Part shown: positions 5,831 to 55,864 of the stretch, one piece after another
Position numbering within the stretch: position 1 is the stretch's first letter
Layout of the letters: each line of letters begins with the position of its first letter
Assembly: GCA_965205975.1 (NCBI GenBank)
Contig: OZ242195.1
Span: 3,030,656 to 3,094,655, forward strand
Direction: 5' to 3'
Length of the DNA: 64,000 nucleotides
From: Candidatus Latescibacterota bacterium
GTDB lineage: Bacteria; Latescibacterota; UBA2968
Position numbers and translations under genes: made by a program
Notes under the pieces: generated by a model
The model's database searches: none
What the model saw: the letters and a program-made list of their open reading frames with translations, nothing else
Told to the model about the DNA's origin: nothing

Positions 5831-5982
5831 AATTCACGCCCTTCCAATTAGGCCCCCTTCCTACCCCAAAATGCAACCACCGATGAACACAGATGAACAC
5901 GGATGGACACGCTTCTACTTCGTGTACCTTCGTGTCGTGAACTGCTATCGCAGTTGTACCCCGTTCCGTGAATTAACTGCGT

Positions 5983-14179: not shown

Positions 14180-14261
14180 CCACAATGAACAAAGGCACCT
14201 ACCCCCGGCCCCTTCCTGAGAGGAAGGGGAGAAAACCTACCATCCCTCGCTTCTTGCCCTT

Positions 14262-14292
14262 CATCTGCGTCCATCTGCGTCATCTGCGGATA
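14262..14292. repeat. Tandem 9/10-mer repeat (CATCTGCGT)n ending in CATCTGCGGATA, immediately 5' of the ATG at 14293.
   Basis: tcatctgcgtccatctgcgtcatctgcggata. The same element recurs at 29235-29270, 36130-36172 and 63014-63052. Confidence 0.9.
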
Positions 14293-37619: not shown

Positions 37620-38878
37620 GTAGCTCCGTGAAATAGGGGTCAGTGATTTTGTTTTAGGTACGTCATGTCCAGATAGCGTCTGCCTGTGATCCACTCATCA
37701 GACCATTCCATACACAACGCGCCGATGAGACGTTCACAAGCCTTCTGGTTGGGGAAGATCTGCACCACATCGGCACGTCTTTTGATCTCCCGGTTGAGTC
37801 TCTCCAACAGGTTGGTGGTACGAATGCGTCTTTGGTGCTGTTGTGGAAAGTGGAAGCAGGCCAGAGCATGGATAATATCCTGGTCTATCTTGTCCACGAG
37901 CTTGGGCAGTATCTCTTCATAGGTGTCCATCATAGCAGATAGGCGCGCTTGTGCAGTGGCCTGATCGGGGGCATTGAAAACGTCTTTGAGTGCTTGGGCA
38001 ACTTCGCGTTGATACTTAGGCGGTGTAATGCCTTTGACATTTCTGTGAAAATGGGTTTGACAATGCTGCCAAGAAGCCCCTTGAAAGTGTCGTTTGATGG
38101 CGTTTTGTAAGCCTTCGTGGTGGTCAGAGATAACCAGTTGCACACCCTTTAACCCACGCTTTTTAAGGTCTTTAAACAAATCCCCATACGTGGCTTCTGT
38201 CTCGGTGTGCGCCACGTCAATGGCCAAAATGTCGCGGTGCCCACTCTCTGCGATCCCAGAAACGATTAAGACGGCCTCAGAAGCGACCTGTCCTCGACTA
38301 CGGATGTGGAGATAGGTCGCATCAATGATCAGATAAGGGTATCCTTGCTCAAGGGAACGCCCCCGCCAGGCTTTAATATCTGCATCCAGGTCTTGACAAA
38401 GCTGTGAGACTTGGGACTTTGAAAAAGAGGTGCCACACAAGGCTTCTGTGATCTTTGTCACTTTGCGTGTGGAGACCCCTTGCAAATACGCCTCTTGAAG
38501 GGCAAGAATCAGTGCTTTTTCACTGCGTTGAAACCGTGAGAATAACGCACTGCTAAATCGTCCTTCCCGATCTTGAGGCACGCGCAGTTCGATACGGCCT
38601 ACGCGCGTCTTGAGGACACGAGGCTTATATCCGTTACGGTAGCCTGTCCGCTCGCCAGTTCTTTCATAAGGTTCTGCTTGTAAACACGACGTGATCTCGG
38701 CTTCCATAAACTGTTGCAGGAAGCGGGTGATGGCCTGATTGAGAAAATCAGGGTCATTCAAAAGTGCAAATTGCTCTGGCGCGGCAATTTTTATATCTTT
38801 GGGGTAAGTCATCGTAGCCTCCAAGGTTAGGGTTTATATTACTACTCACCCCTATTTTAAGATTTTTCTCGGAGCTAC
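37620..38878 (-). mobile_element. IS256-family insertion sequence (about 1.26 kb) with imperfect terminal inverted repeats.
   Basis: Left end GTAGCTCCGTGAAATAGGGGTCAG (37620-). Right end, as reverse complement, GTAGCTCCGAGAAAAATCTTAAAATAGGGGTGAG (-38878). A single mutator-type transposase ORF lies inside. No matching 8-bp target duplication is visible. Confidence 0.75.
37640..38824 (-). CDS. IS256-family (mutator-type) transposase.
   Basis: 394 aa. The N-terminal LNDPDFLNQAITRFLQQFMEAEITSCLQAEPYERT...YRNGYKPRVLKTRVGRIELRVPQDR and central DATYLHIR...VLIVSGI are characteristic of the IS256 transposase family. Confidence 0.85.
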   Translation of the reverse strand: MEATMTYPKDIKIAAPEQFALLNDPDFLNQAITRFLQQFMEAEITSCLQAEPYERTGERTGYRNGYKPRVLKTRVGRIELRVPQDREGRFSSALFSRFQRSEKALILALQEAYLQGVSTRKVTKITEALCGTSFSKSQVSQLCQDLDADIKAWRGRSLEQGYPYLIIDATYLHIRSRGQVASEAVLIVSGIAESGHRDILAIDVAHTETEATYGDLFKDLKKRGLKGVQLVISDHHEGLQNAIKRHFQGASWQHCQTHFHRNVKGITPPKYQREVAQALKDVFNAPDQATAQARLSAMMDTYEEILPKLVDKIDQDIIHALACFHFPQQHQRRIRTTNLLERLNREIKRRADVVQIFPNQKACERLIGALCMEWSDEWITGRRYLDMTYLKQNH

Positions 38879-39363
38879 GGTGACTTTTTTTCCTTTTTAC
38901 AGAAATTTAAGGACGCTATCTCCACTTCGTTGATCATGCGATAAACCACATCTCCAGATTTGTTGCGATCATAAAAACTCAATGGCAACTGGATCAAGTG
39001 GTCGAAAAGATGGCTCCTTATATCCAGCATCATGCGATTGTTTATCCAAGCAAATAGATAGTTTGAGCAAAAACCAATGATGATATTGCCGACTGTAACG
39101 CCCAGGAGCAGAAGCAAAATAAATATCAACAGCTCATAATCTTCATTTGGAAAAACATCATCAATGATAATTTTCATGATATAGGGAAAAGCCAACGAGC
39201 TAACAGTCCCCAGGATCATGAGAACAAAAACAATGCTTTGGTGTATCCAATAAGGTTTCAGAAATTTCAAGAAATGATAAAAGACATGTCCCTGCTTAGA
39301 GAGATTGAAAATGGCTGATATGACTGGTTGTTTGTTCTTCATATTCACCCGTGATGTAAACAA
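38875..39363 (-). pseudogene. Truncated ABC exporter gene. Only the N-terminal transmembrane domain fragment remains, and the reading frame runs into the IS256 right end.
   Basis: MKNKQPVISAIFNLSKQGHVFYHFLKFLKPYWIHQSIVFVLMILGTVSSLAFPYIMKIIIDDV...LPLSFYDRNKSGDVVYRMINEVE is the first about 150 aa of a type-I ABC exporter TMD. The TAG stop is formed by the IS terminal sequence ...GGAGCTAC. No ATPase domain follows. Confidence 0.7.
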
Positions 39364-39384: not shown

Positions 39385-39572
39385 AGACGCTCTTTGCTCG
39401 ATAAGCTCAAGTAAACCATTCTCTCAAGCTCATATTCCCAAATGCTTGAGCTTTGAACTGTTGCCTGCCCGCGCCGTCGCACGGCAGGCAGGTCTGCCGC
39501 CAATATTCGACTTGCCAGGGTCTGTCGGCGGCTTTTTATATTTAGAAATCCGGACAAATAGATAACCGCGTA
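39385..39572. repeat. About 190-bp structured repeat, copy 1 of 3 (other copies at 43785-43993 and a shorter one at 51245-51354).
   Basis: Near-identical sequence cttgata(g/a)gctcaagtaaa(a)ccattctctca(a/g)gctca(t/c)attcccaaatgcttgagctttgaactg + ttgcctgcccgcg(c/t)cgtcgcacggcaggcagg + tctgccgccaatattcgacttgccagggtctgtcggcggcttttt. It contains GCTCAAG/CTTGAGC pairing segments, a long GC hairpin and a terminal hairpin followed by a T-run. Confidence 0.85.
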
Positions 39573-42074
39573 TCAATCCTCCCGCAGGGCATCTATTGGG
39601 CTTGCAGAGGCGACCTTCAGCGCGTGTACGAAGCCACCTAACAAGGGAAGTAGAATGCCTGCGAAAATCGCCGCTAAAATCGTCCCAACCCCAAATTGAA
39701 AACGGTAAGCAAATATCGAAAGCCACTCATCCATAAAGAAATAAGACAGCGGTAGCGCGATAACGGCGGCTACAAACCCGGGCACTGCGTAGTTTAGCAC
39801 GATCCCACTGGCTATTTTGGATGGCACAGCACCCATGACCCGTCGAATGGCAATTTCCTTTCGCCTGCGCGCCACTGCCAGAGAGATCATGCCCAGGGCA
39901 CCCATTGACGCGATGAGAACAGCGCACAAAGCCGCCCCTGAGACGATTTTGCTCCAACTGATTTCTCTGGCATAAAATTTTTGTCTTTCATCTTCTATAT
40001 AAGAAAATCTCAAGGGGTGCTCTGTTTTAAGGTCTTCCCATACGCTTGTGAGATACGTACCAAAGGCTTCGGCACTGCCCTCTCGAATCCGAATCAATAT
40101 CTCTGCCGAGAAGGCACGTTGCAAAGTTGCATCCGTGCCTACGGTGATGATCGTCGGTGAAACCTTATGGCTCAAGTCTCTAACGTGAAAATCCTTAACG
40201 ACACCCACGATGCGACCACTGACATCACTGCCAAACACGCGCGATCTTAACTTTTCTTCTGCTGGACTGATCACCTCTCCGATAGGGTCTGACAACCGCA
40301 GATGCTTTTGAAAGACTTCATTTACGATCACATCGCCAGGCATCGGATTGGGATACAATGATCTCCCCTGCAAGAGTTGCAACCCAACCGTCTCGAGAAA
40401 AGGCCCCTTCACTTGATAATAGGTGACCTCATCTATGAGATTACCATGGCTATCTTTTATCAGGACTGAGTTTGACCAACCGAACGGCAAGTTCGTCCGT
40501 GCAGAGGATGCCACGAGCGGAGACGCAGATAAAGACGCTTGCAGGCGCCCCATCTCATTTTCGGTCAACCTACCCGTTTCGAGCCTGACCAGGTTCGCAG
40601 GTTCAAAGCCCGGCTCTGCCGTAAGAACAAAAAAAGTCTGTTCAAAGATGATGATCGTGCAAAAGACAAACACCAATGTCACACCCGATTGAACAGCCAT
40701 CAATACCTTCAAAAAGGGACCAGACCTGACTACCTTTGCTGTTTTGCTCAAAACGATGAGGGCAGATACAGACGACATAAAGGTCGCCGGATAAATGGCT
40801 GTGCCCAGACCAATCAGACAGGCAAGCGAAAGAATAATGGTCGCGGTCTGAACGGGATCTACTAAAGACGTAAAGGGGGTCCGCAAAACACCTTCAAGAG
40901 GACTTGAAGCCAACTCTGCAACCATCAATCCAATAACACAAGCCAACAGGCTGTATCCAAAGCATTCGACCAATAGCTGGTATCTGAGTTGCCGCTGGTT
41001 CGCACCAAAAATTTGCCTGATGCCCAATTCTTTGGTGCGTGAATTGAACCGTGCCACGTAGAGCAACACGTAATTCAGACACGCGACAGACAGAATTAGG
41101 ACACTGATACCGCTGAGAATATATCCATACAAAGGGTTGGTGCCAGGACGCACACCTTGGCTGCCCCCCCCCGACCCACTATGACTATGATGGTGCAACT
41201 CTGTGATGGGTTGAAGTTTGGCCCTTAAGGTCTCCAAATCCCAGAACGGGTTAGCGGGGTAATTTTGGATGATCCGTGTGAGCTTTCTCTCCACTTCCTT
41301 TATGTTGGCTTCGTCTGCCAGACGTATATAATGTGTGGATGTAAAATCCCAGCCCCGTCCACCTTCTTGCTTGTCGAGAAAGGTTGACGACATACTCAAG
41401 GGCAACAGAATCTCAAAATCCAGACTTGAATTTAGGGGAGGCGTTTCCACAATGCCCTCTATTTTTACAGGGACCACTGCTTTTTTTGTCGGGTTAAAAG
41501 ATAAAGACAATTTCGGAGGTGGTTGTATCCATAACACTTGACCTACTAAATTGCCAATATTGTTGGAAAGCGTCTGAGCGAATGCGCGTGTTATTGCGAC
41601 TTGCCCTGGACGTGAGAGGAATGTACCATGAATAAGCGGGAATGAAAAAATCTCCACGAAACTCCTATCTACCAACACGACCTTATCTATATCTCTCAGA
41701 AAATCTTTGTGAGTACCTACGTGCCAAATTCTCATATCAGGATGGGAAAAGGCACCAAGTATACGGGTTGTGGCCTCGATCTCAGGAATCTCGGCAGACA
41801 TCGCCGATGCCAATGAAACTGGAAAACTGGTAGGCTCAGCTCCTGTGCCCGCCAGAGGACCCATACCTATTTGTCTGAACTTTGCCTTCCCAGTAATGCG
41901 GTATATGCGATGATGGTCTTTGTGGAACTTATCAAAGCTCCAATCATACAGGACGTAAAGCACGCAAAGATAGGTGCAGGCAATCCCTATCCCCAAACCC
42001 AGCAGGTTAATGGCGGCATACGTTTTATATTTGAGAGCATTGCGAAACCAGGTTCGGAAATAATTGAAAAGCAT
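39573..42074 (-). CDS. FtsX-like ABC-transporter permease with a MacB-like periplasmic domain, duplicated 8-TM type (paralog 2).
   Basis: 833 aa. Starts directly with TM1 MLFNYFRTWFRNALKYKTYAAINLLGLGIGIAC. There are two FtsX-type 4-TM bundles, each preceded by a large extracytoplasmic domain. About 70-75% identical to 43994..46474. Confidence 0.8.
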   Translation of the reverse strand: MLFNYFRTWFRNALKYKTYAAINLLGLGIGIACTYLCVLYVLYDWSFDKFHKDHHRIYRITGKAKFRQIGMGPLAGTGAEPTSFPVSLASAMSAEIPEIEATTRILGAFSHPDMRIWHVGTHKDFLRDIDKVVLVDRSFVEIFSFPLIHGTFLSRPGQVAITRAFAQTLSNNIGNLVGQVLWIQPPPKLSLSFNPTKKAVVPVKIEGIVETPPLNSSLDFEILLPLSMSSTFLDKQEGGRGWDFTSTHYIRLADEANIKEVERKLTRIIQNYPANPFWDLETLRAKLQPITELHHHSHSGSGGGSQGVRPGTNPLYGYILSGISVLILSVACLNYVLLYVARFNSRTKELGIRQIFGANQRQLRYQLLVECFGYSLLACVIGLMVAELASSPLEGVLRTPFTSLVDPVQTATIILSLACLIGLGTAIYPATFMSSVSALIVLSKTAKVVRSGPFLKVLMAVQSGVTLVFVFCTIIIFEQTFFVLTAEPGFEPANLVRLETGRLTENEMGRLQASLSASPLVASSARTNLPFGWSNSVLIKDSHGNLIDEVTYYQVKGPFLETVGLQLLQGRSLYPNPMPGDVIVNEVFQKHLRLSDPIGEVISPAEEKLRSRVFGSDVSGRIVGVVKDFHVRDLSHKVSPTIITVGTDATLQRAFSAEILIRIREGSAEAFGTYLTSVWEDLKTEHPLRFSYIEDERQKFYAREISWSKIVSGAALCAVLIASMGALGMISLAVARRRKEIAIRRVMGAVPSKIASGIVLNYAVPGFVAAVIALPLSYFFMDEWLSIFAYRFQFGVGTILAAIFAGILLPLLGGFVHALKVASASPIDALRED

Positions 42075-42124
42075 TGGTTACCCTTGGCAATCAAGAGACG
42101 CTTGATCTCAGCTAACTTTCGCCA

Positions 42125-43219
42125 TTAGCTGGTAGGGGTTTCAGGAGGGCCAATAAGACGATATACCCTGATCCTACCATTCGTATTCTCGTTATCTGTC
42201 GGAGATAAATACCTATATACAAACATCCCATAACAATTAAAAACATCGTTTACACCCAGTTCGTTTTTTATTTTTTCTGCATAAGGCTCTCCACTCGGAT
42301 CTGATAGAAGTATCAGAGCTGTGCTATTTGATGAATCATTGAATAGATATCTGAGCAACATATCTCCCGAAGATAAGAGATGCATGCCGTTCAAGCGGCT
42401 GAAATTGTGTATATCACTTGCCAATTCTTTCTGAGTTTTGCTATCGTCCATTTTAAAGCGAATAAACTTAGGCTGACTCATGGTAATGGGCTTAAGAAAA
42501 CGTTGTGTTATCAAATCAATTCGCATAACCTTCTCTTCCCAGGGCAGGACAAAGTGTATGATTTTTCGCGCTTCGTCATAAGCAAGCCCTTGAAAACGCT
42601 GCAACATAAAAAATAGGTCCATGTATTGTGCATCACAGACTTTGAACTTTACGATATCTTTACCTGTTTCAAGTGAGGTGACGCAAAGCATACCGTTTTT
42701 GTCTTTGTCAACGTAAGTATGAATAAAGTTTTGATCTTCAGAAACCATCATGCGATTAATGAAACGTCTCTCCGGCAGTTTCAATTGTCCTAAAAATTCA
42801 CCTTTGATCGAGAATCGAAGAATCTGCCCGGCTCCCGCATCGTAGATCAGCATTTGGTCGGTATTCGGTATCATTGTTGGCTCTCGCGGTATCTTGTACT
42901 GGCCTTCCATACCCCCTCGGTTGCCGATAGACCACTTGTAGTTACCCTCTCTGTCAAAAACTTCGACACTCCTTCTCAAGCCATCTAAAACAATGATATA
43001 GTCCTTCACAACTGTGATAGAACTTACTACCCCAAGTCCTGGCCTCATCTCCGGGAATTCGAGTGTAATCTCGTCAACCAATGAAAGTTGCGTTCCTTGC
43101 GCTTGCTTAAGGACGACCTCTTCTTGCTGGTTTTCAACAGCACTTTTTTCGCAACTTCCAAAGATAAGAAAGAAGAGTGCCATCAATCTCACAGGGGCTA
43201 ATAACTTTTTTCGATTCAT
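42125..43219 (-). CDS. 6-bladed beta-propeller lipoprotein (paralog 2).
   Basis: Lipobox LIFGSC. Repeated about 45-aa blade-like units (VVKDYIIVLD...VFDREGNYKW...). Paralogous to 46525..47652. Confidence 0.6.
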   Translation of the reverse strand: MNRKKLLAPVRLMALFFLIFGSCEKSAVENQQEEVVLKQAQGTQLSLVDEITLEFPEMRPGLGVVSSITVVKDYIIVLDGLRRSVEVFDREGNYKWSIGNRGGMEGQYKIPREPTMIPNTDQMLIYDAGAGQILRFSIKGEFLGQLKLPERRFINRMMVSEDQNFIHTYVDKDKNGMLCVTSLETGKDIVKFKVCDAQYMDLFFMLQRFQGLAYDEARKIIHFVLPWEEKVMRIDLITQRFLKPITMSQPKFIRFKMDDSKTQKELASDIHNFSRLNGMHLLSSGDMLLRYLFNDSSNSTALILLSDPSGEPYAEKIKNELGVNDVFNCYGMFVYRYLSPTDNENTNGRIRVYRLIGPPETPTS

Positions 43220-43556
43220 GAGGATAATCCTTTCTTATCGTTGGCTCGGTGCCCCCAGTCTGTTTACCGAGAACACCAAGCCAATCTTGAGCCTATCAAG
43301 CTCGGTTGCACACTTTTTTCTATGATTAAGATCAGCAATTAAGAGTACACCTAAAGCTCACTCAGAAGAAAGAAGCCAGTCTAAAGTTCATAGAAAAGAA
43401 AAATGATCGAATTCACTTGAGATAGAACTTTTGCCCAGAGATGTGTGGGTATCTGTCAATCCAGGCGACTTCGATTCTTTTTATGAATTAGCAATACCTT
43501 AGACTGAATGATGGGTAGCTAAAGATGCTCTCAAGCATCAGAGATTCCAGCGCTAA

Positions 43557-43766
43557 CTAGCCGCACGTAATAGTCTCCTCGTCATTATAGAAAATGTGAA
43601 GGCAGCTAGTATCGCACGTCACACTTCCCTCACATTGAATACAATCAAAGTAATGTGCTCCGTAAGAGTCTGTAAACCAATAATCAAGGCGGCTTCCACT
43701 GCCCTCATATCCATAGATACGCGGAGAAGACAGCCGAGACTGCACAGGCTTTGTCAAAGTTTTCAT
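43557..43766 (-). CDS. Small Cys-rich peptide (69 aa), putative precursor/bacteriocin-like peptide (paralog 2).
   Basis: MKTLTKPVQSRLSSPRIYGYEGSGSRLDYWFTDSYGAHYFDCIQCEGSVTCDTSCLHIFYNDEETITCG. Strong RBS AAGGAGGTGATA. The N-terminal about 25 residues are conserved with the peptide at 47826..48023, and the C-terminal part is divergent and Cys-rich. Confidence 0.6.
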   Translation of the reverse strand: MKTLTKPVQSRLSSPRIYGYEGSGSRLDYWFTDSYGAHYFDCIQCEGSVTCDTSCLHIFYNDEETITCG

Positions 43767-43784
43767 AGTATCACCTCCTTTCCT

Positions 43785-43993
43785 TATTGAGTCAAGTTAA
43801 AGTGTGCTTGCCCTTACTTGATAGGCTCAAGTAAAACCATTCTCTCAGGCTCACATTCCCAAATGCTTGAGCTTTGAACTGTTGCCTGCCCGCGCTGTCG
43901 CACGGCAGGCAGGTCTGCCGCCAATATTCGACTTGCCAGGGTCTGTCGGCGGCTTTTTATATTTAAAAATTCGGACAAATAGATAACCGCGTA
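43785..43993. repeat. About 190-bp structured repeat, copy 2. It forms the entire intergenic region between FtsX permease paralog 1 and peptide gene 2.
   Basis: See the copy at 39385-39572. About 95% identical. Confidence 0.85.
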
Positions 43994-46474
43994 TCAATCC
44001 TCCCGCAGGGCATCTATTGGGCTTGCAGAGGCGACCTTCAGCGCGTGTACGAAGCCACCTAACAAGGGAAGTAGAATGCCTGCGAAAATCGCCGCTAAAA
44101 TCGTCCCAACCCCGAATTGAAAGCGGTAGGCAAACATCGAGAGCCAATCATCCATAAAGAAGTAGGAGAGAGGGAGTGCGATGATGGCAGCTATAAATCC
44201 GGGTAGTGCGTAGTTCAGCACAATGCCACTGGCTATTTTGGATGGCACAGCACCCATGACCCTTCGGATGGCGATTTCCTTTCGCCTGCGCGCCACTGCC
44301 AGAGAGATCATGCCCAGAGCACCCATTGACGCGATGAGAACCGTGCACAGGGCTGCGCCAGAGACGATTTTGCTCCAACTAATTTCTCTGGCATAAAATT
44401 TTTGTCTGTCATCTTCTACGAAGGAGAACCGCAACAACCCATTGATTTTCTGGTCTTTCCAAAGCTGTTCGAGATACGGGACAAATTCATCTGCACGGCC
44501 TTCTTCGATACGAACCAATATCTCTCCTAAGCTGGCTCGTTGCAAAGTCGCATCCGTACCAACGGTGATGATGGTCGGCGCAACCGTGTGGCTCAAGTCT
44601 CTAACGTGAAAATCTTTTACCACACCCACAATGCGTCCACTGACATCACTCCCAAACACTCGTGATCTTAACTTTTTTTCTGCTGGGCTGATCACCTCTC
44701 CAAGAGGCTCTGAAGACGTTAAGTGCTTTAGGAAGGCTTCATTCACGATTACATCGCCAGGGATAGGGTTTGGGTATAGCGACTTTCCGTGTAAGAGTTG
44801 CAACCCAACGGTATCGAGAAAAGGCCCATCCACTTGATAATAGGTGACCTCATCAATGAGTTTGCCACTGCTGTCTTTCATCAAAACTGTGTTTGACCAT
44901 CCGAAGGGCAGATTCGTCCGCACATAGAAGGTCACGAGTGGAGAGGCTGATAAAGATGCCTGCAGGCGGTTGATCTCATTTTTTTTCAAGCCATCAGTAT
45001 TGAGTTTGACGAGGTTCGTCGGGTCAAAACCTGGATACGTGGTGAGGATAAAAAAAGTCTGTTCAAAGATAATAATGGTGCAAAACACGAACACCAACGT
45101 CACGCCCGATTGGACTGCCATCAATACCTTTAAGAAAGGACCAGACCTGACAGCTTTTGAGGTCTTGCTCAAAACGCTGATGGCAGATATAGATGACATA
45201 AAGGTCACCGGATAAAGGGCTGTTCCTATCCCTATCAGACAAGCTAATATCAAGAGAATAATTGCGGTCTGAAGGGGTGCCACCGAGGACGTGAGTGGGG
45301 TCTGTAAAATACCTTCAAGGGGGGGTGATGCTAACTCTGCAACTGCCAGGCCTATGATGCAAGCCAAAATGCTGTATCCAAAGCCTTCGACCAATAGCTG
45401 GTGCGTGAGGTCCTGGCGGTTCGCGCCGAAGACTTGCCTAATGCCCAATTCTTTGGTGCGTGAATTGAACCGCGCCACGTAGAGCAACACGTAATTCAGA
45501 CAAGCGACGGACAAAATTAGGATACTCATACCACCGAGAATATATCCATATAAGGGACTGGTGATTCGACTCACACCATACACCCGCTGTCGTATCGATC
45601 CAGGATTATGGTGCATATCTGTGATGGGTTGAAGCCTGCTTTTAAAGGTATCTAAATTCCATAATGAGTTAAGAGAAGCCTGCTTTTGGATCAGTCTCGT
45701 AAGTTTTCCATCTAATGCCCCGATATCTGATCCATCTGTCAAACGGATGTAATGTGAGGATTGAAAGCGCCAGTCCCAATCTCCTTCTTCCCTGTCGAGA
45801 AAGGTTGCAGACATACTCAATGGCAAAAGTATCTCAAAATCCAGGCTCGAATTGCGGGGAGGCGTTTCCACAATACCCCCTATTTCAATAGGGGCTACTA
45901 TAGGTTCCAGGTCTTTAAAGAGACTATGAGAAAATCGCAGCCATAAGACTTTGCCAATCAAACTGTCAGTATCATTGGCCAGTGTTCGAGCGAATCTGCG
46001 CGTGATCACGACTTGCTCTGGTCGAGCCAAGAAAGTTCCGCGGATAAGCGGAAAAGAGAACATCTCCTCAAAACTTCTATCGACGAACAGTACCTTTTTG
46101 ATAGGGCGCAGAAAATTTCTGTGGGTACCCACATCCCAATTCGCAAGGTCACTCGTTACGCGGGTCGTAAGTTCAATCTCTGGAAACTCGGCAGACATCA
46201 TGGGTGATAGTGCAACAGGAAAAGACATTGTCTCAGTCCCTGTCCCTGCTTTAGGAGAGCTTCCTATTGTTTCGCTGTACTTTACCTTTCCTGCAACGCG
46301 ATAGATGCGCTGATGGTTTTCGTGAAATCTATCAAAGCTCCAATCGTACAGGATGTATAACACACAGAGATAGCAACACGCGATCCCGATTCCCAAACCC
46401 AGCAGATTAATCGTTGCATAAGCTCTATACTTGAGGATATTGCGAAACCATGTTCGGAAATAATTGAAAAGCAT
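43994..46474 (-). CDS. FtsX-like ABC-transporter permease with a MacB-like periplasmic domain (paralog 1).
   Basis: 826 aa. MLFNYFRTWFRNILKYRAYATINLLGLGIGIAC.... Same architecture as 39573..42074. Confidence 0.8.
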   Translation of the reverse strand: MLFNYFRTWFRNILKYRAYATINLLGLGIGIACCYLCVLYILYDWSFDRFHENHQRIYRVAGKVKYSETIGSSPKAGTGTETMSFPVALSPMMSAEFPEIELTTRVTSDLANWDVGTHRNFLRPIKKVLFVDRSFEEMFSFPLIRGTFLARPEQVVITRRFARTLANDTDSLIGKVLWLRFSHSLFKDLEPIVAPIEIGGIVETPPRNSSLDFEILLPLSMSATFLDREEGDWDWRFQSSHYIRLTDGSDIGALDGKLTRLIQKQASLNSLWNLDTFKSRLQPITDMHHNPGSIRQRVYGVSRITSPLYGYILGGMSILILSVACLNYVLLYVARFNSRTKELGIRQVFGANRQDLTHQLLVEGFGYSILACIIGLAVAELASPPLEGILQTPLTSSVAPLQTAIILLILACLIGIGTALYPVTFMSSISAISVLSKTSKAVRSGPFLKVLMAVQSGVTLVFVFCTIIIFEQTFFILTTYPGFDPTNLVKLNTDGLKKNEINRLQASLSASPLVTFYVRTNLPFGWSNTVLMKDSSGKLIDEVTYYQVDGPFLDTVGLQLLHGKSLYPNPIPGDVIVNEAFLKHLTSSEPLGEVISPAEKKLRSRVFGSDVSGRIVGVVKDFHVRDLSHTVAPTIITVGTDATLQRASLGEILVRIEEGRADEFVPYLEQLWKDQKINGLLRFSFVEDDRQKFYAREISWSKIVSGAALCTVLIASMGALGMISLAVARRRKEIAIRRVMGAVPSKIASGIVLNYALPGFIAAIIALPLSYFFMDDWLSMFAYRFQFGVGTILAAIFAGILLPLLGGFVHALKVASASPIDALRED

Positions 46475-46524
46475 TGGTTCTCCTCAGCAATTAGAGGATG
46501 CTTGAGCACACCTCACTTTTACCA

Positions 46525-47652
46525 CTATTCGGCAGGGTTTGCAGGAGCATCAATAAGACGATAAACACGGATATTACCATTCGTATCCTCGTTATCAGAA
46601 GGAGGCGAGTACTTATAAACAAGCCTGCCTTGACAAGTAAAAATATTTCGTTCCAATTCATTGTTTACTTCTTGTGCAGAAGGTTGCACGCTCAGGTCTG
46701 ATAGAAGTATAAGCGCGGTACTATTTGAGGGATCCCTAAAATCGTACCTGAACAAAATATCTCCCGAAGGGAGGAGATGCATTCCGCTTAATCTACTAAA
46801 CTTACCAAAGTTAGGTGGAGGGGAGAATAATCCTGTTTTATCATCATCTAATTTGAGACTGACGAATTTGGGATGATTTGTGGTTATAGGGGGGAGAAAA
46901 TCTCGTGTCGCCAGATCAATTCTCATCACTTTATCTTCCCAAGATAGGGCAAAATATATGATTTCTCGCGCCTCATCATAAGCAAAGCCGTGAGAACGCT
47001 GGAACATAAAAAAAGCCCTCTCGTATTGAGCCTCGCAGACTTTGAACTTTGCAAGGTCTTCACCCGTATCAAGGGAGGTAACGTAAAGCATACCGTTTCC
47101 TTTTCGGTCACCATAAGGATAAATGAGCTTGCGATCTTCAGAAACCACCAGGGGATTAATAAGGCGTCGTTGGGGCAGTTTTAATCGTCCTAAAAATTCA
47201 CCTTGAACGGAGAAGCGAAGCGTCTGCCCAGTCCCGCCATCGTAGATCAGCATTTGTTCGGTATTCGGTATCATCGTTGGCTTGCTCGGTGATTTGTACT
47301 GGCCTTCTCCCTCTCCTCGACTGCCAATAGGCCACTTATAGTTGCCTGCTCTGTCAAAAACTTCGACACAACTTCTTAGAACATCAAAAATAATGATGTA
47401 GTCATCCATCACCGCAATTGAGCTTACCATCCCAAGTGCGGGACCTGTCTCTGGACGTTCGAGTGTAATGCCATCAATTAAAGATAGATGAGCCCCTTGT
47501 GTTTGCACTTTGAGGACGATGACATCTTGTCGCGATTGAAAACTCGCCATCCCATCTTGCTGGTTTTCAACCGCACTTTTTCCGCAACTCCCGCAGATCA
47601 GACACAGAAGTGTCAGCCCCCCTACTTGAACCCATAGCTTGTTGCGAGTCAT
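46525..47652 (-). CDS. 6-bladed beta-propeller lipoprotein (paralog 1).
   Basis: Lipobox LICGSC. Colinear with 42125..43219 (IIIFDVLRSCVEVFDRAGNYKWPIGSRGEGEGQYK...). Confidence 0.6.
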   Translation of the reverse strand: MTRNKLWVQVGGLTLLCLICGSCGKSAVENQQDGMASFQSRQDVIVLKVQTQGAHLSLIDGITLERPETGPALGMVSSIAVMDDYIIIFDVLRSCVEVFDRAGNYKWPIGSRGEGEGQYKSPSKPTMIPNTEQMLIYDGGTGQTLRFSVQGEFLGRLKLPQRRLINPLVVSEDRKLIYPYGDRKGNGMLYVTSLDTGEDLAKFKVCEAQYERAFFMFQRSHGFAYDEAREIIYFALSWEDKVMRIDLATRDFLPPITTNHPKFVSLKLDDDKTGLFSPPPNFGKFSRLSGMHLLPSGDILFRYDFRDPSNSTALILLSDLSVQPSAQEVNNELERNIFTCQGRLVYKYSPPSDNEDTNGNIRVYRLIDAPANPAE

Positions 47653-47825
47653 GACTTATCACCCTTTCCCTATTGTAAAATCAGTGCTCCTGTAATATTT
47701 TGAGAGCACTGAGTCAATTTTGAGCCTATCAAGCTTGATTGCACACTTTTATTTTTTACTGAACATACTTCATTATGGCAATAAAAAAGATAAAATAGAA
47801 GACAGATCTCTTTAAAAGCCAGCCC

Positions 47826-48023
47826 TTATCCCCAAGACCGAGCACCAGGAGGAAAGCACTGCAAAACGGAACGCCAAACGAACTGGCACTCATACAAATC
47901 AACAGGGTTTCCATCTACAACGCCATCTCCAACGTCTACCCAGGCAAGTCCAACTCCAAACTCGTATCCATATATAGGCGACGCCATATTCTGAATCTTC
48001 ACTGGTTTGGTCAATGTTTTCAT
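47826..48023 (-). CDS. Small peptide (65 aa), putative precursor/bacteriocin-like peptide (paralog 1).
   Basis: MKTLTKPVKIQNMASPIYGYEFGVGLAWVDVGDGVVDGNPVDLYECQFVWRSVLQCFPPGARSWG. Same RBS and 5' leader DNA as peptide 2. The shared N-terminal block is MKTLTKPV...SP.IYGYE.G.G. Confidence 0.55.
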   Translation of the reverse strand: MKTLTKPVKIQNMASPIYGYEFGVGLAWVDVGDGVVDGNPVDLYECQFVWRSVLQCFPPGARSWG

Positions 48024-48111
48024 AATATCACCTCCTTTCCTTATTGCGTCAAATCAAAGTGTGCTTGTCCTTACTTGATAGGCTCAAGTAAAACCGTTCT
48101 GTTCTTAAATA

Positions 48112-48834
48112 TCAATAAATAAATGTAGATAAAGGATCTATATCAAAATCTTTGGCAATAATTTGAGAATAGGGCACTCCTTTAAGATGATCGTTCAGAA
48201 GTGGTTTTTGCAATCGCAAATGTCTTTGAATCACACCAAAAAAGAGGACTGTATTTTGAGGGCGATCTTTTGAGGATAGATGACAATGCGTTATGATATT
48301 CTTTTCATTGACAACAAAGATAGCCGGGGTGCGATGAGTAAGCATTTCATTTTGGAATAGCATGTTCTCCGTATCCGGAAGCAACTCGTAATGGAGGTTA
48401 AAACTCCTTTTGTATCTTTTTAACACGCCCGCAGGAGCATTGGCAAAAGCATAAATTGGAAAGCGTTTTGAGGGATCCTGATTTTGGTACACATGCTCCA
48501 GTAACTTTATCTGGGTGATTAGACATGGCTGACAGTCTTGTGGGCTGAAGACCAGAACCAGTCCTTTTCCTGTTTCGGAAAAGTCTGTTGAAATCCAGTC
48601 GCCATTTATGTTCTTCAATTCCAACTTCGGAAATTCCTGTCCTTGATAATTGGATGCGTAGGTAGAGGCATTTATATGCTCTTTGTAATCGGCATTCTCT
48701 ATTCGGAGTTCTCTGATTGTTTTCCAATGACCAGAGTTCGTATTTCTCAATTTCCATATCCCGAATAACGCAACCAGAAGAAGAACAGATAACAGGATAT
48801 TCAAAATCAGCGACATTTTCCGAATTTCTTGCAT
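48112..48834 (-). CDS. Membrane-anchored thioredoxin-like protein (TlpA/ResA family, CxxC).
   Basis: N-terminal TM LILNILLSVLLLVALFGIW. Redoxin motif LVLVFSPQDCQPCL. 240 aa. Confidence 0.7.
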   Translation of the reverse strand: MQEIRKMSLILNILLSVLLLVALFGIWKLRNTNSGHWKTIRELRIENADYKEHINASTYASNYQGQEFPKLELKNINGDWISTDFSETGKGLVLVFSPQDCQPCLITQIKLLEHVYQNQDPSKRFPIYAFANAPAGVLKRYKRSFNLHYELLPDTENMLFQNEMLTHRTPAIFVVNEKNIITHCHLSSKDRPQNTVLFFGVIQRHLRLQKPLLNDHLKGVPYSQIIAKDFDIDPLSTFIY

Positions 48835-50913: not shown

Positions 50914-51207
50914 CTATTCGGGAATAAGTGAATGTGTATCAGTGGCTAATTTCTCATATATATACTTCGCGACCGAATGTGTCGAAGTTAGCATTTCTTC
51001 TGTGAGTTCTTCGTCCTCTACGATCACATCAAATGCATCCTCTAAGCCTGTCACCAGGGCCAGGGTAGAAATAGAGTCGAGTATAGAATTCAAAGGAAGA
51101 TTGTCCCAATCTATATCATCGGATGTGACTTCACGGTCTAATGCCTTCAGAACCAAATCTTGAATCTGATTCTCAATCTCAGATATTGTTATTGTATTTT
51201 TTGTCAT
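50914..51207 (-). CDS. Acyl/peptidyl carrier protein-like small acidic protein.
   Basis: 97 aa and acidic. LDSISTLALVTGLEDAF resembles the phosphopantetheine-attachment DSL motif and its helix. Confidence 0.45.
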   Translation of the reverse strand: MTKNTITISEIENQIQDLVLKALDREVTSDDIDWDNLPLNSILDSISTLALVTGLEDAFDVIVEDEELTEEMLTSTHSVAKYIYEKLATDTHSLIPE

Positions 51208-51244: not shown

Positions 51245-51354
51245 ACCCCTCAAAAGATACCTTACTATCAAGCTCACATTCCCAAATGCTTGAGCTTTGA
51301 ACTGCAGTCTGCCGCCGACACTCGACTTGCCAGGGTCTGTCGGCGGCTTTTTTA
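51245..51354. repeat. About 110-bp shortened copy (copy 3) of the structured repeat. It lacks the central GC hairpin.
   Basis: ctatcaagctcacattcccaaatgcttgagctttgaactgcagtctgccgccgacactcgacttgccagggtctgtcggcggcttttttat. It has a perfect 10-bp stem GCCGCCGACA/TGTCGGCGGC followed by a T-run on the plus strand. Confidence 0.8.
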
Positions 51355-53903: not shown

Positions 53904-54137
53904 TTAATAGCCGTCATGTGCAAATACATACACATACCAAGAGGCCTGTTCTGGTCCTACCCCATTAGGGGGAGCTTCACAACCCCAAATTTTAGCGAGT
54001 CGAGTCACTTCTTGCTGGGCTTCCCTCTTAGAATTATAATGCGCCACAGTCTTCCAGTTTCTGAAGGAGCGGAACCTGGAACGCCAATATCGCTTTCGCT
54101 CGTCGGGATCCATCGTAATTCCAACTCGACAGGCCAT
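53904..54137 (-). CDS. Small basic hypothetical protein (77 aa) immediately 3' of the radical-SAM gene.
   Basis: ORF only, with reasonable codon usage. No recognisable family. Confidence 0.3.
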   Translation of the reverse strand: MACRVGITMDPDERKRYWRSRFRSFRNWKTVAHYNSKREAQQEVTRLAKIWGCEAPPNGVGPEQASWYVYVFAHDGY

Positions 54138-55613: not shown

Positions 55614-55790
55614 TTACTCAGGCTGATCAAAATTGTCCCAATCGTCATCATCAGGGAACGGCATGGGGGGAACAGTAATAGGATAAGGGGTACAGCCAAC
55701 TTCAAAACTATCCGTCGTCTGATATGTGCTAATACCACCCTCTTTATCCATTGTTCCATTGATCAAGATCAACTTGCGTCGAGTCGTCAT
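55614..55790 (-). CDS. Unannotated 58-aa ORF, putative precursor peptide for the adjacent radical-SAM/SPASM enzyme.
   Basis: GGAGGATAAT-ATG RBS. Translation MTTRRKLILINGTMDKEGGISTYQTTDSFEVGCTPYPITVPPMPFPDDDDWDNFDQPE. Ends 20 nt before the rSAM start codon. Below the 60-aa cutoff of the ORF track. Confidence 0.55.
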   Translation of the reverse strand: MTTRRKLILINGTMDKEGGISTYQTTDSFEVGCTPYPITVPPMPFPDDDDWDNFDQPE

Positions 55791-55849: not shown

Positions 55850-55864
55850 GCAAGATCCGTGCCT
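55850..55864 (-). promoter_or_regulatory. Sigma-54 (-24/-12) promoter upstream of the peptide and rSAM operon.
   Basis: The minus strand reads AGGCACGGATCTTGC, which fits GG-N10-GC with TTGC at -12 (consensus TGGCAC-N5-TTGC). About 60 nt upstream of the peptide ATG. Confidence 0.55.

What the first reader, a model, noticed from the sequence alone, without database searches (positions are those of the whole stretch)
39573..48023. Tandemly duplicated three-gene module: leader-conserved small Cys peptide, 6-bladed beta-propeller lipoprotein and 8-TM FtsX/MacB-like permease
Two adjacent paralogous copies (48023-43994 and 43766-39573) each encode:
- a 65-69 aa peptide with a conserved N-terminal block (MKTLTKPV...SP.IYGYE.G.G) and a divergent Cys-containing C-terminal core, a leader/core-like organisation;
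- a lipoprotein beta-propeller;
- a duplicated-FtsX permease with no cognate ATPase gene nearby.

The 5' regions of the two peptide genes, including RBS and leader DNA, are nearly identical.

This looks like a diversifying peptide plus export/immunity (or sensing) cassette of unknown function. Family-level duplication with core divergence is typical of bacteriocin-like or RiPP systems, but the propeller and FtsX pairing is not a described maturation or export route.
Basis: partly seen in the sequence, partly recalled or inferred. Interest (0 to 1): 0.85.

Follow-up and report, generated by a model that had tools for sequence, protein, structure and literature searches.

The report
Variable peptide, propeller and permease island
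Two side-by-side gene trios (a small cysteine peptide, a beta-propeller lipoprotein and a membrane permease) form the fast-diverging "specificity" part of an otherwise conserved peptide-export gene cluster in uncultured marine Latescibacterota, most likely a bacteriocin-like peptide paired with its own binding and protection proteins.

Summary
Two paralogous trios lie on the minus strand at 48023-43994 and 43766-39573.

The small ORFs are real genes:
- 36 distinct relatives share a 21-aa leader (MKTLTKP..IYGYE) that is under purifying selection.
- Their cores are hypervariable, mostly acidic, and carry 2 or 4 Cys.

The trio sits inside a cassette conserved in at least 12 Latescibacterota loci: ACP-like, S8 protease fused to TIGR04066, membrane redoxin, peptide, NHL/DUF5128 propeller lipoprotein, optional duplicated FtsX/MacB permease, MsbA-like ABC exporter, rhodanese, MauE.

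- Flanking genes are 82-91% identical between loci. Permease (76%), propeller (68%) and peptide (49%) are far more divergent.
- Peptide-core similarity tracks propeller and permease similarity, but not S8 or redoxin similarity.
- Propeller-permease pairs without a peptide sit at a second conserved site.
- The rSAM has its own conserved precursor and is probably not the maturase of these peptides.
- A covarying long-range RNA helix brackets every peptide ORF.

Best reading: a SacP23/QHNDH-like processed and exported disulfide peptide, with a cognate binding (immunity) lipoprotein and a MacB-type clearing permease.

In this window IS256 has cut the exporter gene. This is a new variant of a known kind; function is inferred, not shown.

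The parts
47826..48023 (-). Peptide B precursor (65 aa): 21-aa leader MKTLTKPVKIQNMASPIYGYE plus a 44-aa core with 2 Cys (C-x9-C)
   Evidence: ORF and RBS. The identical protein P0107 is in public data. It belongs to the leader family.
46525..47652 (-). Propeller B: NHL/DUF5128 six-bladed beta-propeller lipoprotein (375 aa), a class of its own (62-66% identity to all others)
   Evidence: Pfam PF17170, 49.1 bits. Lipobox LICGSC. Identity matrix.
43994..46474 (-). Permease B: duplicated FtsX/MacB-type permease, 8 TM, two periplasmic domains, no ATPase domain
   Evidence: Pfam FtsX x2 and MacB_PCD. ADOP and DarB scores are far below their cut-offs. Hydropathy.
43557..43766 (-). Peptide A precursor (69 aa): leader MKTLTKPVQSRLSSPRIYGYE plus a 48-aa acidic core with 5 Cys (framework C-x8-C-x3-C-x12-C plus one extra Cys)
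   Evidence: 88% identical relative P0103 in locus L012. dN/dS for leader versus core.
42125..43219 (-). Propeller A: NHL/DUF5128 lipoprotein (364 aa)
   Evidence: Pfam PF17170. The PDB profile search hits NHL domains at E 1e-22. 91% identical to the L012 propeller, whose peptide is 88% identical to peptide A.
39573..42074 (-). Permease A: duplicated FtsX/MacB-type permease (833 aa). TM segments at about 24-42, 323-429 (three), 458-485 and 705-816 (three); periplasmic domains at 43-322 and 486-704.
   Evidence: Nearest solved structure is MacB. Sequence variability is concentrated in the periplasmic domains.
48051..48088 (-). 5' arms of the long-range RNA helix of module B (outer CTTGAGCCTATCAAG, inner GCACACTTT)
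   Evidence: Inverted repeats. Covariation. The MFE fold closes the ORF.
47719..47754 (-). 3' arms of the long-range RNA helix of module B (AAAGTGTGC ... CTTGATAGGCTCAA)
47681..47712 (-). Conserved hairpin between the helix and propeller B (no U-tract)
   Evidence: Equivalent hairpins with compensatory changes occur in other loci.
43799..43831 (-). 5' arms of the long-range RNA helix of module A
43286..43316 (-). 3' arms of the long-range RNA helix of module A. They lie about 240-255 nt after the stop codon, as in L012.
   Evidence: (D12).
43243..43282 (-). Conserved hairpin upstream of propeller A
43826..43958 (-). Intergenic repeat X (copy between permease B and peptide A). Other copies lie at 39405-39537 and 51249-51352.
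   Evidence: (D7, D8). It is also found upstream of the peptide genes in L005, L010 and L012.
39397..39537 (-). Repeat X plus an orphan 5' arm (ACTTGAGCTTATCGAG) upstream of the truncated ABC gene; this marks the end of the duplicated unit
38875..39363 (-). Remnant (162 aa) of the cassette's MsbA-like ABC exporter, cut by the IS
   Evidence: Pfam ABC_membrane. Full-length 589-596 aa orthologues with an ATPase domain are present in the other loci.
37640..38824 (-). IS256/Mutator-family transposase that truncates the cassette. The rhodanese and MauE genes found downstream in other loci are missing here.
   Evidence: Pfam Transposase_mut, E 4e-126. Synteny comparison.
48112..48834 (-). Membrane-anchored redoxin (CQPC motif), a conserved cassette gene immediately upstream of the peptide
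   Evidence: Pfam AhpC-TSA/Redoxin. One N-terminal TM segment. Present in every cassette.
48978..50879 (-). S8 subtilisin-like protease (Asp, His and Ser motifs present, no signal peptide) fused to a TIGR04066/DUF1611 domain; the candidate leader protease
   Evidence: Pfam. NCBIfam QhpE 140.7 bits and TIGR04066 122.9 bits. PDB subtilisins.
50914..51207 (-). ACP-like protein (97 aa), a conserved cassette gene
   Evidence: NCBIfam ACP families, all below cut-off. Synteny.

Best explanation
The two trios are alternative "specificity islands" of a conserved peptide production cassette found in marine, host-associated Latescibacterota.

Proposed pathway. Every step is inferred by analogy with described systems; none has been shown.
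1. Each small gene makes a precursor with a 21-aa cationic leader and a 43-63 aa core. The core is usually acidic and carries 2 or 4 Cys.
2. The cytoplasmic S8/TIGR04066 protein, possibly together with the ACP-like protein, processes the leader. This mirrors QhpE in QHNDH biogenesis and the subtilisin-like protease predicted in the SacP23 cluster.
3. The MsbA-like ABC exporter moves the core across the inner membrane.
4. The membrane redoxin (CQPC) together with MauE forms one or two disulfides.
5. The NHL-type propeller lipoprotein encoded next to each peptide binds that particular peptide in the periplasm.
6. Where present, the duplicated MacB-type permease uses its variable periplasmic domains, powered by an ATPase encoded elsewhere, to clear or expel the peptide.

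Together, steps 5 and 6 would work like LanI plus LanFEG/BceAB self-immunity against a bacteriocin-like product.

A conserved 5'/3' RNA helix brackets each peptide ORF. It probably acts as a processing or stability element that uncouples the peptide mRNA from the downstream genes.

In this window the cassette carries two islands but has lost its exporter, rhodanese and MauE to an IS256 insertion. It may therefore retain protection while having lost production.
For: Shown by tool results:
- The peptide genes are real and follow a leader/core plan. There are 36 distinct members with invariant M1, K2, L4, K6 and IYGYE. Leader omega is 0-0.1 and core omega 0.7-1.0.
- The cassette order is conserved in at least 12 loci.
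- Flank genes are 82-91% identical between loci, against permease 76%, propeller 68% and peptide 49%.
- Peptide-core similarity predicts propeller and permease similarity but not S8 or redoxin similarity.
- Permease variability lies in its periplasmic domains, while its TM segments are conserved.
- The propeller is an NHL-type binding scaffold, with no sequence match beyond NHL-repeat and propeller families and only one nearly invariant His.
- Orphan propeller-permease pairs of peptide-linked classes sit at a second conserved site. Such orphan pairs are typical of immunity genes.
- Cassettes exist with peptide and propeller but no permease (L006, L010, L018), so the permease is accessory.
- Cys counts are 2 or 4 in 30 of 36 peptides, alongside a CQPC redoxin and MauE.
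- The S8 domain scores 140.7 bits against QhpE, and the ABC exporter is MsbA-like.

From the literature:
- QhpE cleaves the QhpC leader in the cytoplasm before export through an ABC efflux transporter (PMC7876137).
- The SacP23 bacteriocin cluster combines a precursor with a 19-aa leader and Cys-rich core, an ABC transporter, a TIGR04066 protein, an ACP-related protein and a subtilisin-like protease (PMC10731318).

RNA helix: 92% of cells pair in the outer helix, with 3 compensatory pairs and 7 one-sided changes to G-U on the sense strand. None of 500 shuffles reached the observed values. The arms flank every peptide ORF examined, and the MFE fold closes the ORF.
Against: - There is no experimental evidence for secretion, cleavage, antimicrobial activity or peptide-propeller binding.
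- Most cores are strongly acidic (mean net charge -5.6), which is unusual for membrane-active bacteriocins.
- No outer-membrane or periplasmic adaptor component is encoded in the cassette, so release from the cell is unproven.
- The permease has no ATPase partner in the window or in the loci inspected.
- The co-variation of the three genes could reflect simple linkage within an old allelic block rather than physical interaction.
- Propeller and permease are under overall purifying selection (pN/pS 0.2-0.5), and no 40-codon window is consistently enriched in non-synonymous changes across the pairs compared.
- L010 has a second peptide with no propeller of its own.
- The propeller shows no homology to any known immunity protein.
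- The structure model was too poor (pLDDT 56) to test whether variable residues form a binding face.
Confidence: 0.4

Rival explanations
1. Heteromeric periplasmic complex. After leader removal and ABC export, the peptide becomes a tightly bound small subunit of its cognate propeller lipoprotein. This would parallel the cross-linked gamma subunit of quinohemoprotein amine dehydrogenase, or the disulfide-rich light subunit of methylamine dehydrogenase sitting on its propeller subunit. The permease would handle or position the lipoprotein complex.
For: - The maturation set parallels QHNDH and MADH: an S8 protease close to QhpE (140.7 bits against a cut-off of 165), a QhpD-like rSAM nearby in two loci, an MsbA-like efflux ABC transporter, a MauE homologue and a redoxin (PMC7876137).
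- A propeller gene is the invariable neighbour of the peptide.
- Peptide and propeller co-vary.
Against: - Enzyme small subunits are conserved, whereas these cores are hypervariable with omega near 1.
- No Trp or other core residue apart from the Cys pair is invariant.
- The propeller has no conserved metal- or cofactor-type residue set.
- No dehydrogenase or cytochrome partner is encoded in the cassette.
- Orphan propellers exist without peptides.
Confidence: 0.2
2. Polymorphic signalling or kin recognition. The peptide is a secreted strain-specific signal (pherotype). The propeller lipoprotein and the permease's periplasmic domains form the cognate receptor. This would be analogous to the co-diversifying AgrD/AgrB/AgrC or ComX/ComQ/ComP blocks, or to BceAB-type sensing transporters.
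For: - A hypervariable island lies between conserved flanks, with several discrete allelic classes shared across genomes.
- Regulators stand at the head of each cassette: RR-AraC in some loci, a kinase plus sigma-54 activator in others.
- FtsX-family permeases are known (own knowledge) to signal through their extracytoplasmic domains.
Against: - No histidine kinase or other transducer is linked to the module.
- The regulators differ between loci while the module stays the same.
- Several complete cassettes and orphan pairs in one genome fit toxin/immunity collections better than a quorum-sensing circuit.
Confidence: 0.15
3. Dedicated export or maturation route. Propeller plus FtsX permease move or fold the peptide across the envelope, as MacAB-TolC exports enterotoxin STII.
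For: - The permease is MacB-like.
- DarB-type FtsX permeases export the RiPP darobactin. This is reflected only in weak NCBIfam similarity.
- The genes are adjacent to the peptide.
Against: - The cassette already has a dedicated MsbA-like ABC exporter.
- Three cassettes lack the permease.
- Orphan pairs occur without any peptide.
- No adaptor, outer-membrane factor or ATPase is encoded nearby.
- Export machinery normally recognises the conserved leader and would not need to diverge along with the core.
Confidence: 0.1
4. The small ORFs are not genes. The conserved upstream DNA would be only a regulatory or RNA element in front of the propeller genes.
For: - The peptides match no Pfam or NCBIfam family.
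- The flanking arms are conserved at the nucleotide level.
Against: - The reading frame stays open at 64-84 codons in 36 distinct sequences.
- All have a perfect RBS and ATG.
- The leader shows synonymous-only change, and a Cys framework is conserved.
Confidence: 0.02

Closest known systems
CLI_3235 / SacP23-type Cys-rich bacteriocin clusters of Firmicutes (TIGR04065 precursor, CcpM rSAM TIGR04068, TIGR04066 protein, ACP-related TIGR04069, subtilisin-like protease, ABC transporter; PMC10731318)
   Same: - A short leader (19 versus 21 aa) followed by a 42-60 aa Cys-containing core.
- A TIGR04066-like domain, an ACP-like protein, an S8 protease and an ABC exporter in one cluster.
- A related rSAM next to some loci.
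   Different: - All HMM scores are below the family cut-offs, and the peptides do not match TIGR04065.
- The protease and the TIGR04066 domain are fused here.
- The rSAM is dispensable and has its own precursor.
- The host is probably diderm (own knowledge), and the cassette adds a redoxin, MauE, rhodanese, a propeller lipoprotein and an FtsX permease, none of which appear in the published SacP23 gene table.
Quinohemoprotein amine dehydrogenase maturation (QhpC/D/E/F) and methylamine dehydrogenase accessory genes (MauD/MauE)
   Same: - A leader-bearing small Cys polypeptide.
- A cytoplasmic subtilisin-like leader protease, with QhpE as the best NCBIfam match.
- ABC efflux to the periplasm.
- A beta-propeller partner protein.
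- A MauE homologue plus a thioredoxin-fold protein.
   Different: - The cores are hypervariable with no conserved Trp, so a quinone cofactor is unlikely.
- The propeller is a 6-bladed NHL-type lipoprotein, not the QhpB or MauB subunit.
- There are no haem subunit genes.
- QhpE and QhpD scores are below their cut-offs.
Lantibiotic and peptide-antibiotic self-protection: LanI lipoprotein with LanFEG, and BceAB-type FtsX-domain transporters (own knowledge)
   Same: - A surface-anchored lipoprotein plus a membrane transporter encoded beside the peptide gene.
- Specificity for the cognate peptide.
- Orphan copies can occur.
- The lipoprotein alone can be sufficient.
   Different: - There is no sequence relationship.
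- The lipoprotein here is an NHL propeller.
- The transporter is an 8-TM fused-dimer MacB-like permease with no linked ATPase.
- The setting is the periplasm of a diderm cell.
MacB / LolCDE type VII ABC transporters; ADOP (TIGR03434) and DarB (NF038008) duplicated permeases
   Same: - FtsX fold with a MacB-type periplasmic domain.
- The duplicated architecture resembles ADOP and DarB.
- Like ADOP, it is an orphan with no adjacent ATPase.
   Different: - Scores are far below the family cut-offs (203 against 622 for ADOP; 65-83 against 700 for DarB).
- It is tightly paired with a propeller lipoprotein.
- There is no adaptor or outer-membrane partner.
- It shows allelic diversification of its periplasmic domains.
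Pherotype blocks such as agrBDC or comQXP (own knowledge)
   Same: A peptide gene and its interacting protein genes form a hypervariable block of discrete classes between conserved flanks.
   Different: There is no kinase or receptor of the known types and no homology to these systems. A signalling role is untested.

Membership tests
Pfam PF17170 (DUF5128) / NHL-type six-bladed beta-propeller | HMM match above the gathering score | tested here: met
   43.2 and 49.1 bits against a cut-off of 22.9. The family profile hits NHL domains of TRIM2, TRIM71 and Brat at E 1e-22 to 1e-12, and the Bacteroides exported protein 4raa at 1e-3.
Bacterial lipoprotein | Signal peptide ending in a lipobox with an invariant Cys | tested here: met
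   MNRKKLL..LIFGSC and ..LICGSC read from the sequence. G21 and C23 are invariant in 23 homologues. No dedicated predictor was run.
MacB/FtsX (type VII ABC) permease | FtsX 4-TM module with a large periplasmic domain between TM1 and TM2 | tested here: met
   FtsX matched twice and MacB_PCD once. 8 TM segments and two domains of about 280 and 220 aa. The second half aligns to MacB structures.
MacB/FtsX (type VII ABC) permease | A cognate ABC ATPase, either fused or encoded adjacently | tested here: not met
   No ABC_tran domain in any scanned ORF of 180 aa or more in the window, nor next to the permeases in related loci.
ADOP family duplicated permease (TIGR03434) | Score at or above the curated cut-off (622.3 bits) | tested here: not met
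   203.1 and 191.8 bits.
Darobactin exporter permease DarB (NF038008) | Score at or above the curated cut-off (700 bits) | tested here: not met
   65.5 and 82.9 bits.
CLI_3235/CcpM peptide maturation system | TIGR04066 family protein | tested here: inconclusive
   122.9 bits against a cut-off of 200, covering residues 272-520 of the S8 fusion protein. It is a related domain but not a curated member.
CLI_3235/CcpM peptide maturation system | TIGR04065 precursor, TIGR04069 ACP-related protein and TIGR04068 rSAM | tested here: not met
   The peptides match no NCBIfam family. The ACP-like protein matches other ACP models, not TIGR04069. The rSAM scores 165.8 bits against a cut-off of 500 for TIGR04068.
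QHNDH maturation (QhpD/QhpE) | QhpE (NF049966) and QhpD (TIGR03906) above their cut-offs | tested here: not met
   QhpE 140.7 against 165 bits. QhpD 254.7 against 453 bits.
Ranthipeptide / SCIFF system acting on the MKTLTKP peptides | An rSAM maturase consistently co-located with the precursor | tested here: not met
   The rSAM is adjacent in the window and L001 only. L004, L005, L012 and L019 have RR-AraC in its place. The rSAM has its own conserved precursor family. The best rSAM score is 266.5 bits against a cut-off of 425.
RiPP or leader-dependent bacteriocin precursor (generic) | A conserved leader and a variable core in a family of small genes next to a protease and an exporter | tested here: met
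   cassette synteny.
RiPP or leader-dependent bacteriocin precursor (generic) | Leader cleavage, modification and bioactivity of the product | not testable with these tools
   Requires expression, mass spectrometry and activity assays.
Known anti-phage defence systems (PADLOC) | Match of the module proteins to any defence model | tested here: not met
   No hit for peptides, propeller, permease or redoxin. Only a generic subtilase hit for the S8 protein.

The most novel reading that the evidence does not exclude
Each peptide, its NHL-propeller lipoprotein and an ATPase-less MacB-type permease form a three-part, allele-specific recognition set. This would be a new class of self-protection or kin/pherotype discrimination system in uncultured sponge- and coral-associated Latescibacterota. 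The propeller would be the specificity-determining peptide receptor and the permease its mechanotransmission partner. Peptide dosage would be set by excising the peptide mRNA at a conserved 5'/3' RNA helix.
Probability: 0.3. Interest if true: 0.8.

Novelty: new variant of a known kind. Interest (0 to 1): 0.62.

Why it matters
If the model holds, three things follow:
- It defines a new family of leader-dependent, disulfide-bonded mini-proteins. At least 23 clusters at 50% identity exist, and none is annotated.
- It gives a first functional context for two large "orphan" protein groups: DUF5128/NHL propeller lipoproteins and ATPase-less duplicated FtsX permeases.
- It shows a bacteriocin- or pherotype-like polymorphism operating among uncultured marine host-associated symbionts.

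The clear separation into conserved machinery and a swappable specificity island makes the system directly testable with cognate versus non-cognate peptide-propeller pairs.

The covarying RNA helix around a small ORF is a separate, testable example of post-transcriptional control in a peptide gene cluster.

Tried and rejected
- **Exact look-up of propeller A** found no record, although the identical protein P0001 is in the homology database.
- **Rfam scan of the whole window at gathering thresholds:** no family matched, so the repeat X and the RNA arms are not known RNAs.
- **JGI metagenome scan with the leader pattern:** 281 pattern matches, none confirmed. The family was found only in ENA, NCBI and Logan data.
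- **AlphaFold model of propeller A** from 23 close homologues: pLDDT 56. This is too poor for a fold search or for mapping variable positions, so neither was attempted.
- **Sigma-54 promoter in front of the peptides:** none found. The only good matches are upstream of the rSAM precursor and at 20418-20431.
- **Sigma-70 and terminator scans:** counts equal to shuffled controls, so uninformative.
- **Window-by-window non-synonymous/synonymous counts** in propeller and permease: no consistent hot spot of non-synonymous change, only mosaic divergence suggesting recombination.
- **PAL-like enzyme idea for the propeller:** rejected. Only a weak repeat-level match to PAL (E 6e-3) and no conserved His or metal-site set.
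- **DNA inversion switch as the explanation for the inverted repeats:** judged less likely than an RNA helix. One-sided changes are G-U on the sense strand, and no recombinase gene is linked.
- **Literature searches** for DUF5128 and for propeller plus FtsX in RiPP clusters found no description of this module.

Full report
**Observation**

All six ORFs are present on the minus strand at the reported coordinates.
- Peptides: 48023-47826 (65 aa) and 43766-43557 (69 aa). Both have the same strong RBS and the N-terminus MKTLTKPV..SP.IYGYE.
- Propellers: 47652-46525 and 43219-42125. Both match Pfam DUF5128 above threshold and start with a signal peptide ending in GSC.
- Permeases: 46474-43994 and 42074-39573. 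Both carry two FtsX modules and MacB_PCD. Hydropathy gives 8 TM segments and two extracytoplasmic domains.

The two modules are old paralogues. DNA identity is 86% over the 5' region. The peptide core cannot be aligned. Identity is about 70% in the propeller and about 75% in the permease. The last ~500 bp plus the downstream repeat are 95-99% identical, which indicates later gene conversion. None of the scanned ORFs of 180 aa or more in the 64-kb window encodes an ABC ATPase.

**Context in the window**

The region from 38 to 60 kb has lower GC than its surroundings (about 45% against 53%). It forms one minus-strand cluster, listed here from upstream to downstream:
- Ser/Thr kinase and a STAND-TPR-GAF sigma-54 activator
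- a sigma-54 promoter, GGCACGgatcTTGC, at 55850-55863
- a 58-aa peptide at 55790-55614
- an rSAM-SPASM enzyme with a PqqD-like domain, whose best matches are SCIFF, QhpD and PapB maturases, all below cut-off
- a 77-aa protein, DUF354 and a UDP-glucose dehydrogenase
- an ACP-like protein
- an S8 protease fused to a TIGR04066/DUF1611 domain (QhpE 140.7 bits, TIGR04066 122.9 bits)
- a membrane-anchored redoxin with a CQPC motif
- the two trios
- a 162-aa stump of an MsbA-like ABC exporter, cut by an IS256/Mutator transposase

**Related loci**

The propeller has more than 100 close homologues at 52-100% identity. The only names any source gives them are "6-bladed beta-propeller" from Latescibacteria MAGs. 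Genome and contig look-ups returned loci from Candidatus Latescibacterota MAGs, one MAG labelled Poribacteria, and a Tara sample.

In at least 12 loci the gene order is the same: [regulator] - ACP-like - S8/TIGR04066 - redoxin - peptide - {propeller, permease} - MsbA-like ABC exporter (589-596 aa, with its ATPase domain) - rhodanese - MauE - glycan-related genes.

The variations are informative:
- The permease comes before the propeller in the L001/L016 class.
- The permease is absent in L006, L010 and L018.
- L010 has a second peptide after MauE.
- The rSAM sub-cluster precedes the cassette only in the window and L001. L004, L005, L012 and L019 have an RR-AraC regulator there instead.
- One 5.94-Mb genome carries two complete cassettes plus one propeller-permease pair with no peptide.
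- Such orphan pairs lie at the same chromosomal site in L007, L009 and L020, between a GFO/IDH/MocA oxidoreductase with DUF5069 and, in L020, sulfatase genes.
- The orphans are orthologous to one another (83-97% identity). They belong to the same class as the L001/L016 modules, with permeases 83-85% identical.

**The peptides**

Six-frame searches and a profile search of 1.84 billion representative proteins gave 36 distinct members, falling into 23 clusters at 50% identity.
- Total length is 64-84 aa.
- The leader is 19-21 aa, with invariant M1, K2, L4, K6 and IYGYE.
- Cores are 43-63 aa with a mean net charge of -5.6.
- The Cys count is 2 or 4 in 30 of 36 members.
- The recurring Cys frameworks are C-x8-C-x3-C-x12-18-C, C-x8-C-x7/8-C-x14-16-C, and C-x6-9-C followed by x-[VP]-G.

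Leader codons evolve under purifying selection. Between window A and L012 there are 0 non-synonymous and 1 synonymous changes; omega is 0.10 for L001/L016. Cores have omega 0.7-1.0 with the reading frame preserved. No Pfam or NCBIfam model matches the peptides.

**The trio as a specificity island**

| Component | Mean identity between loci |
|---|---|
| S8/TIGR04066 | 91% |
| ABC exporter | 89% |
| Redoxin | 87% |
| MauE | 84% |
| ACP-like | 84% |
| Rhodanese | 82% |
| Permease | 76% |
| Propeller | 68% (range 62-91) |
| Peptide | 49% |

- Pairs of loci with similar cores have the most similar propellers and permeases. Window A and L012 show core 83%, propeller 91%, permease 85%. L005 and L019 show 78/87/83. 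L006 and L018 show core 53% and propeller 87%; neither has a permease.
- Core identity correlates with propeller identity (rho 0.36, Mantel p 0.002) and with permease identity (rho 0.64). It does not correlate with S8 (0.08) or redoxin (-0.07) identity.
- In the permease, the variable stretches lie in the two periplasmic domains, while the TM segments are 86-92% conserved.
- Propeller and permease are under overall purifying selection with a mosaic pattern of divergence. The island therefore looks like a set of old allelic classes exchanged by recombination, not a site of runaway positive selection.

**What the proteins resemble**

- The propeller profile matches NHL-repeat domains (TRIM2, TRIM71, Brat) at E 1e-22 to 1e-12, and a Bacteroides exported protein (4raa) weakly. 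It has no conserved metal-site-like residue set. A binding scaffold is more likely than an enzyme.
- The permease's nearest solved relative is MacB. ADOP and DarB scores are far below their cut-offs.
- The S8 domain has the Asp (IDSG), His (GHGT) and Ser (GSSFAAP) motifs, read from the sequence. It has no signal peptide, so it is a cytoplasmic protease like QhpE.
- In QHNDH biogenesis, QhpE removes a 28-residue leader from the Cys-containing gamma polypeptide in the cytoplasm, before export through an ABC efflux transporter (PMC7876137).
- The SacP23 bacteriocin cluster of a sponge-derived Paenibacillus has a precursor with a 19-aa leader and a 42-aa Cys-rich core. It also encodes an ABC transporter, a TIGR04068 rSAM, a TIGR04066 protein, an ACP-related protein and a subtilisin-like protease (PMC10731318). 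This is the closest described relative of the conserved half of the cassette.
- No PADLOC defence model matches the module.
- Published surveys note only that antiSMASH calls "ranthipeptide" and "RRE" clusters in sponge Latescibacterota, with function unknown (PMC12993501).

**The rSAM question**

The 58-aa ORF directly upstream of the rSAM belongs to a well-conserved family of its own, with 28 clusters.
- It has an invariant single Cys and a PPxPFPDDDDWDxFD tail.
- A second copy lies on the same 5.56-Mb contig.

This conserved precursor, the patchy linkage of the rSAM to the cassette, the even Cys counts and the presence of redoxin plus MauE all point the same way. The MKTLTKP peptides are more likely disulfide-bonded than rSAM-cross-linked. 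This is an inference.

**A cis element**

Every peptide ORF is bracketed by complementary arms.
- The 5' arms are ACTTGAGCCTATCAAG, about 69 nt before the ATG, followed by GCACACTTT.
- The 3' arms are AAAGTGTGC followed by CTTGATAGGCTCAA, 11-256 nt after the stop codon.
- Across 10 loci the outer helix is 92% paired. Three positions show compensatory changes, and seven one-sided changes give G-U on the sense strand. None of 500 shuffles reached the observed pairing or covariation, and slid registers collapse to 20-44% pairing.
- The MFE fold of module B closes the whole ORF with this helix.
- A second conserved hairpin follows each helix.

I read this as an RNA-level processing or stability element, for example an RNase III-type site, that sets peptide mRNA levels independently of the downstream genes. 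This is inferred and needs transcript end mapping.

An extra 5' arm plus a ~130-nt repeat X lies upstream of the truncated ABC gene and marks the end of the duplicated unit. The function of repeat X is unexplained.

**Mechanism and rivals**

| Reading | Confidence |
|---|---|
| Leader-dependent, exported, disulfide-bonded peptide whose neighbouring propeller lipoprotein binds it specifically and whose MacB-type permease, where present, clears it (works like LanI with LanFEG/BceAB self-protection) | 0.40 |
| Stable peptide-propeller complex, as in QHNDH or MADH | 0.20 |
| Pherotype signalling or kin recognition | 0.15 |
| Propeller and permease as the export route | 0.10 |

Evidence favouring the self-protection reading:
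- orphan pairs of peptide-linked classes
- cassettes that lack the permease
- divergence concentrated in periplasmic domains
- the position of the propeller directly after the peptide gene in most loci

The strongest counter-arguments:
- the acidic cores
- no linked ATPase or outer-membrane component
- the possibility that co-variation reflects linkage alone

In this window the exporter, rhodanese and MauE have been lost to IS256. The exporter is also split by IS66 in L019, and the L008 cassette is decayed. This fits loss of production with retention of the island, but it is not proof.

**Verdict**

The module is part of a larger conserved cassette that has its own exporter and protease. The rSAM link is unlikely. 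The system is a new variant of leader-dependent bacteriocin/RiPP-like clusters, with an undescribed peptide family and an undescribed propeller-permease partner pair. No experiment yet bears on its function.

Noticed in passing
window 55614-55790 (-), with 55850-55863 and 54155-55594: A 58-aa precursor sits behind a sigma-54 promoter (GGCACGgatcTTGC) and directly upstream of the QhpD/SCIFF/PapB-like rSAM-SPASM enzyme. It belongs to a conserved family of 28 clusters with an invariant single Cys and a PPxPFPDDDDWDxFD tail. A second copy lies elsewhere on the same 5.56-Mb contig. It is probably a separate ranthipeptide-like product (Cys-Asp thioether?).
   Followed up: partly
window 48051-48088 with 47719-47754; 43799-43831 with 43286-43316; same positions in L001, L004-L006, L010, L012, L016: A covarying long-range RNA helix (a 15-bp outer and a 9-bp inner stem) encloses every peptide ORF and is followed by a second conserved hairpin. 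It is probably an mRNA processing or stability element.
   Followed up: yes
window 39405-39537, 43826-43958, 51249-51352: A ~130-nt intergenic repeat (X) has a GCCGCCGACAG...GGCGGC hairpin followed by AGTTCAAAGCTCAAGCATTTGGGAATGTGAGC. It also lies upstream of the peptide genes in L005, L010 and L012. There is no Rfam match and its function is unknown.
   Followed up: partly
window 37640-39363; L019 13992-17249; L008: The cassette's MsbA-like ABC exporter is interrupted by IS256 in this window and by IS66 in L019. The L008 cassette has fragmented propeller, ABC and MauE genes. Production genes appear to be inactivated repeatedly while the modules persist.
   Followed up: partly
L007 3806-16231; L009 10001-18828; L020 10001-13615: Propeller-permease pairs without a peptide lie at a conserved chromosomal site: after a GFO/IDH/MocA oxidoreductase and DUF5069, and next to sulfatases in L020. 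Copy number varies, and L007 and L009 each have an extra conserved but distant (30% identity) FtsX permease.
   Followed up: partly
window 14176-16071 (+): A 631-aa protein combines a redoxin (AhpC/TSA) domain with a copper type II monooxygenase C-terminal (PHM-like) domain. It sits beside TPR and Ig-like proteins.
   Followed up: no
window 9769-11999 (-): A YcaO-domain protein lies next to a TPR protein, possibly another peptide-modification locus. Multihaem cytochromes lie at 4619-8784.
   Followed up: no
window 53904-54137 (-): A conserved 77-aa protein lies between the rSAM and DUF354, 166 bits to its L001 orthologue, with no Pfam or NCBIfam match. L001 has an additional 297-aa protein at this position that the window lacks.
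   Followed up: no
window 19230-33403: Sulfatases, a formylglycine-generating enzyme, penicillin amidase and an amidase-BNR protein surround the cluster. A second exact sigma-54 motif lies at 20418-20431.
   Followed up: no
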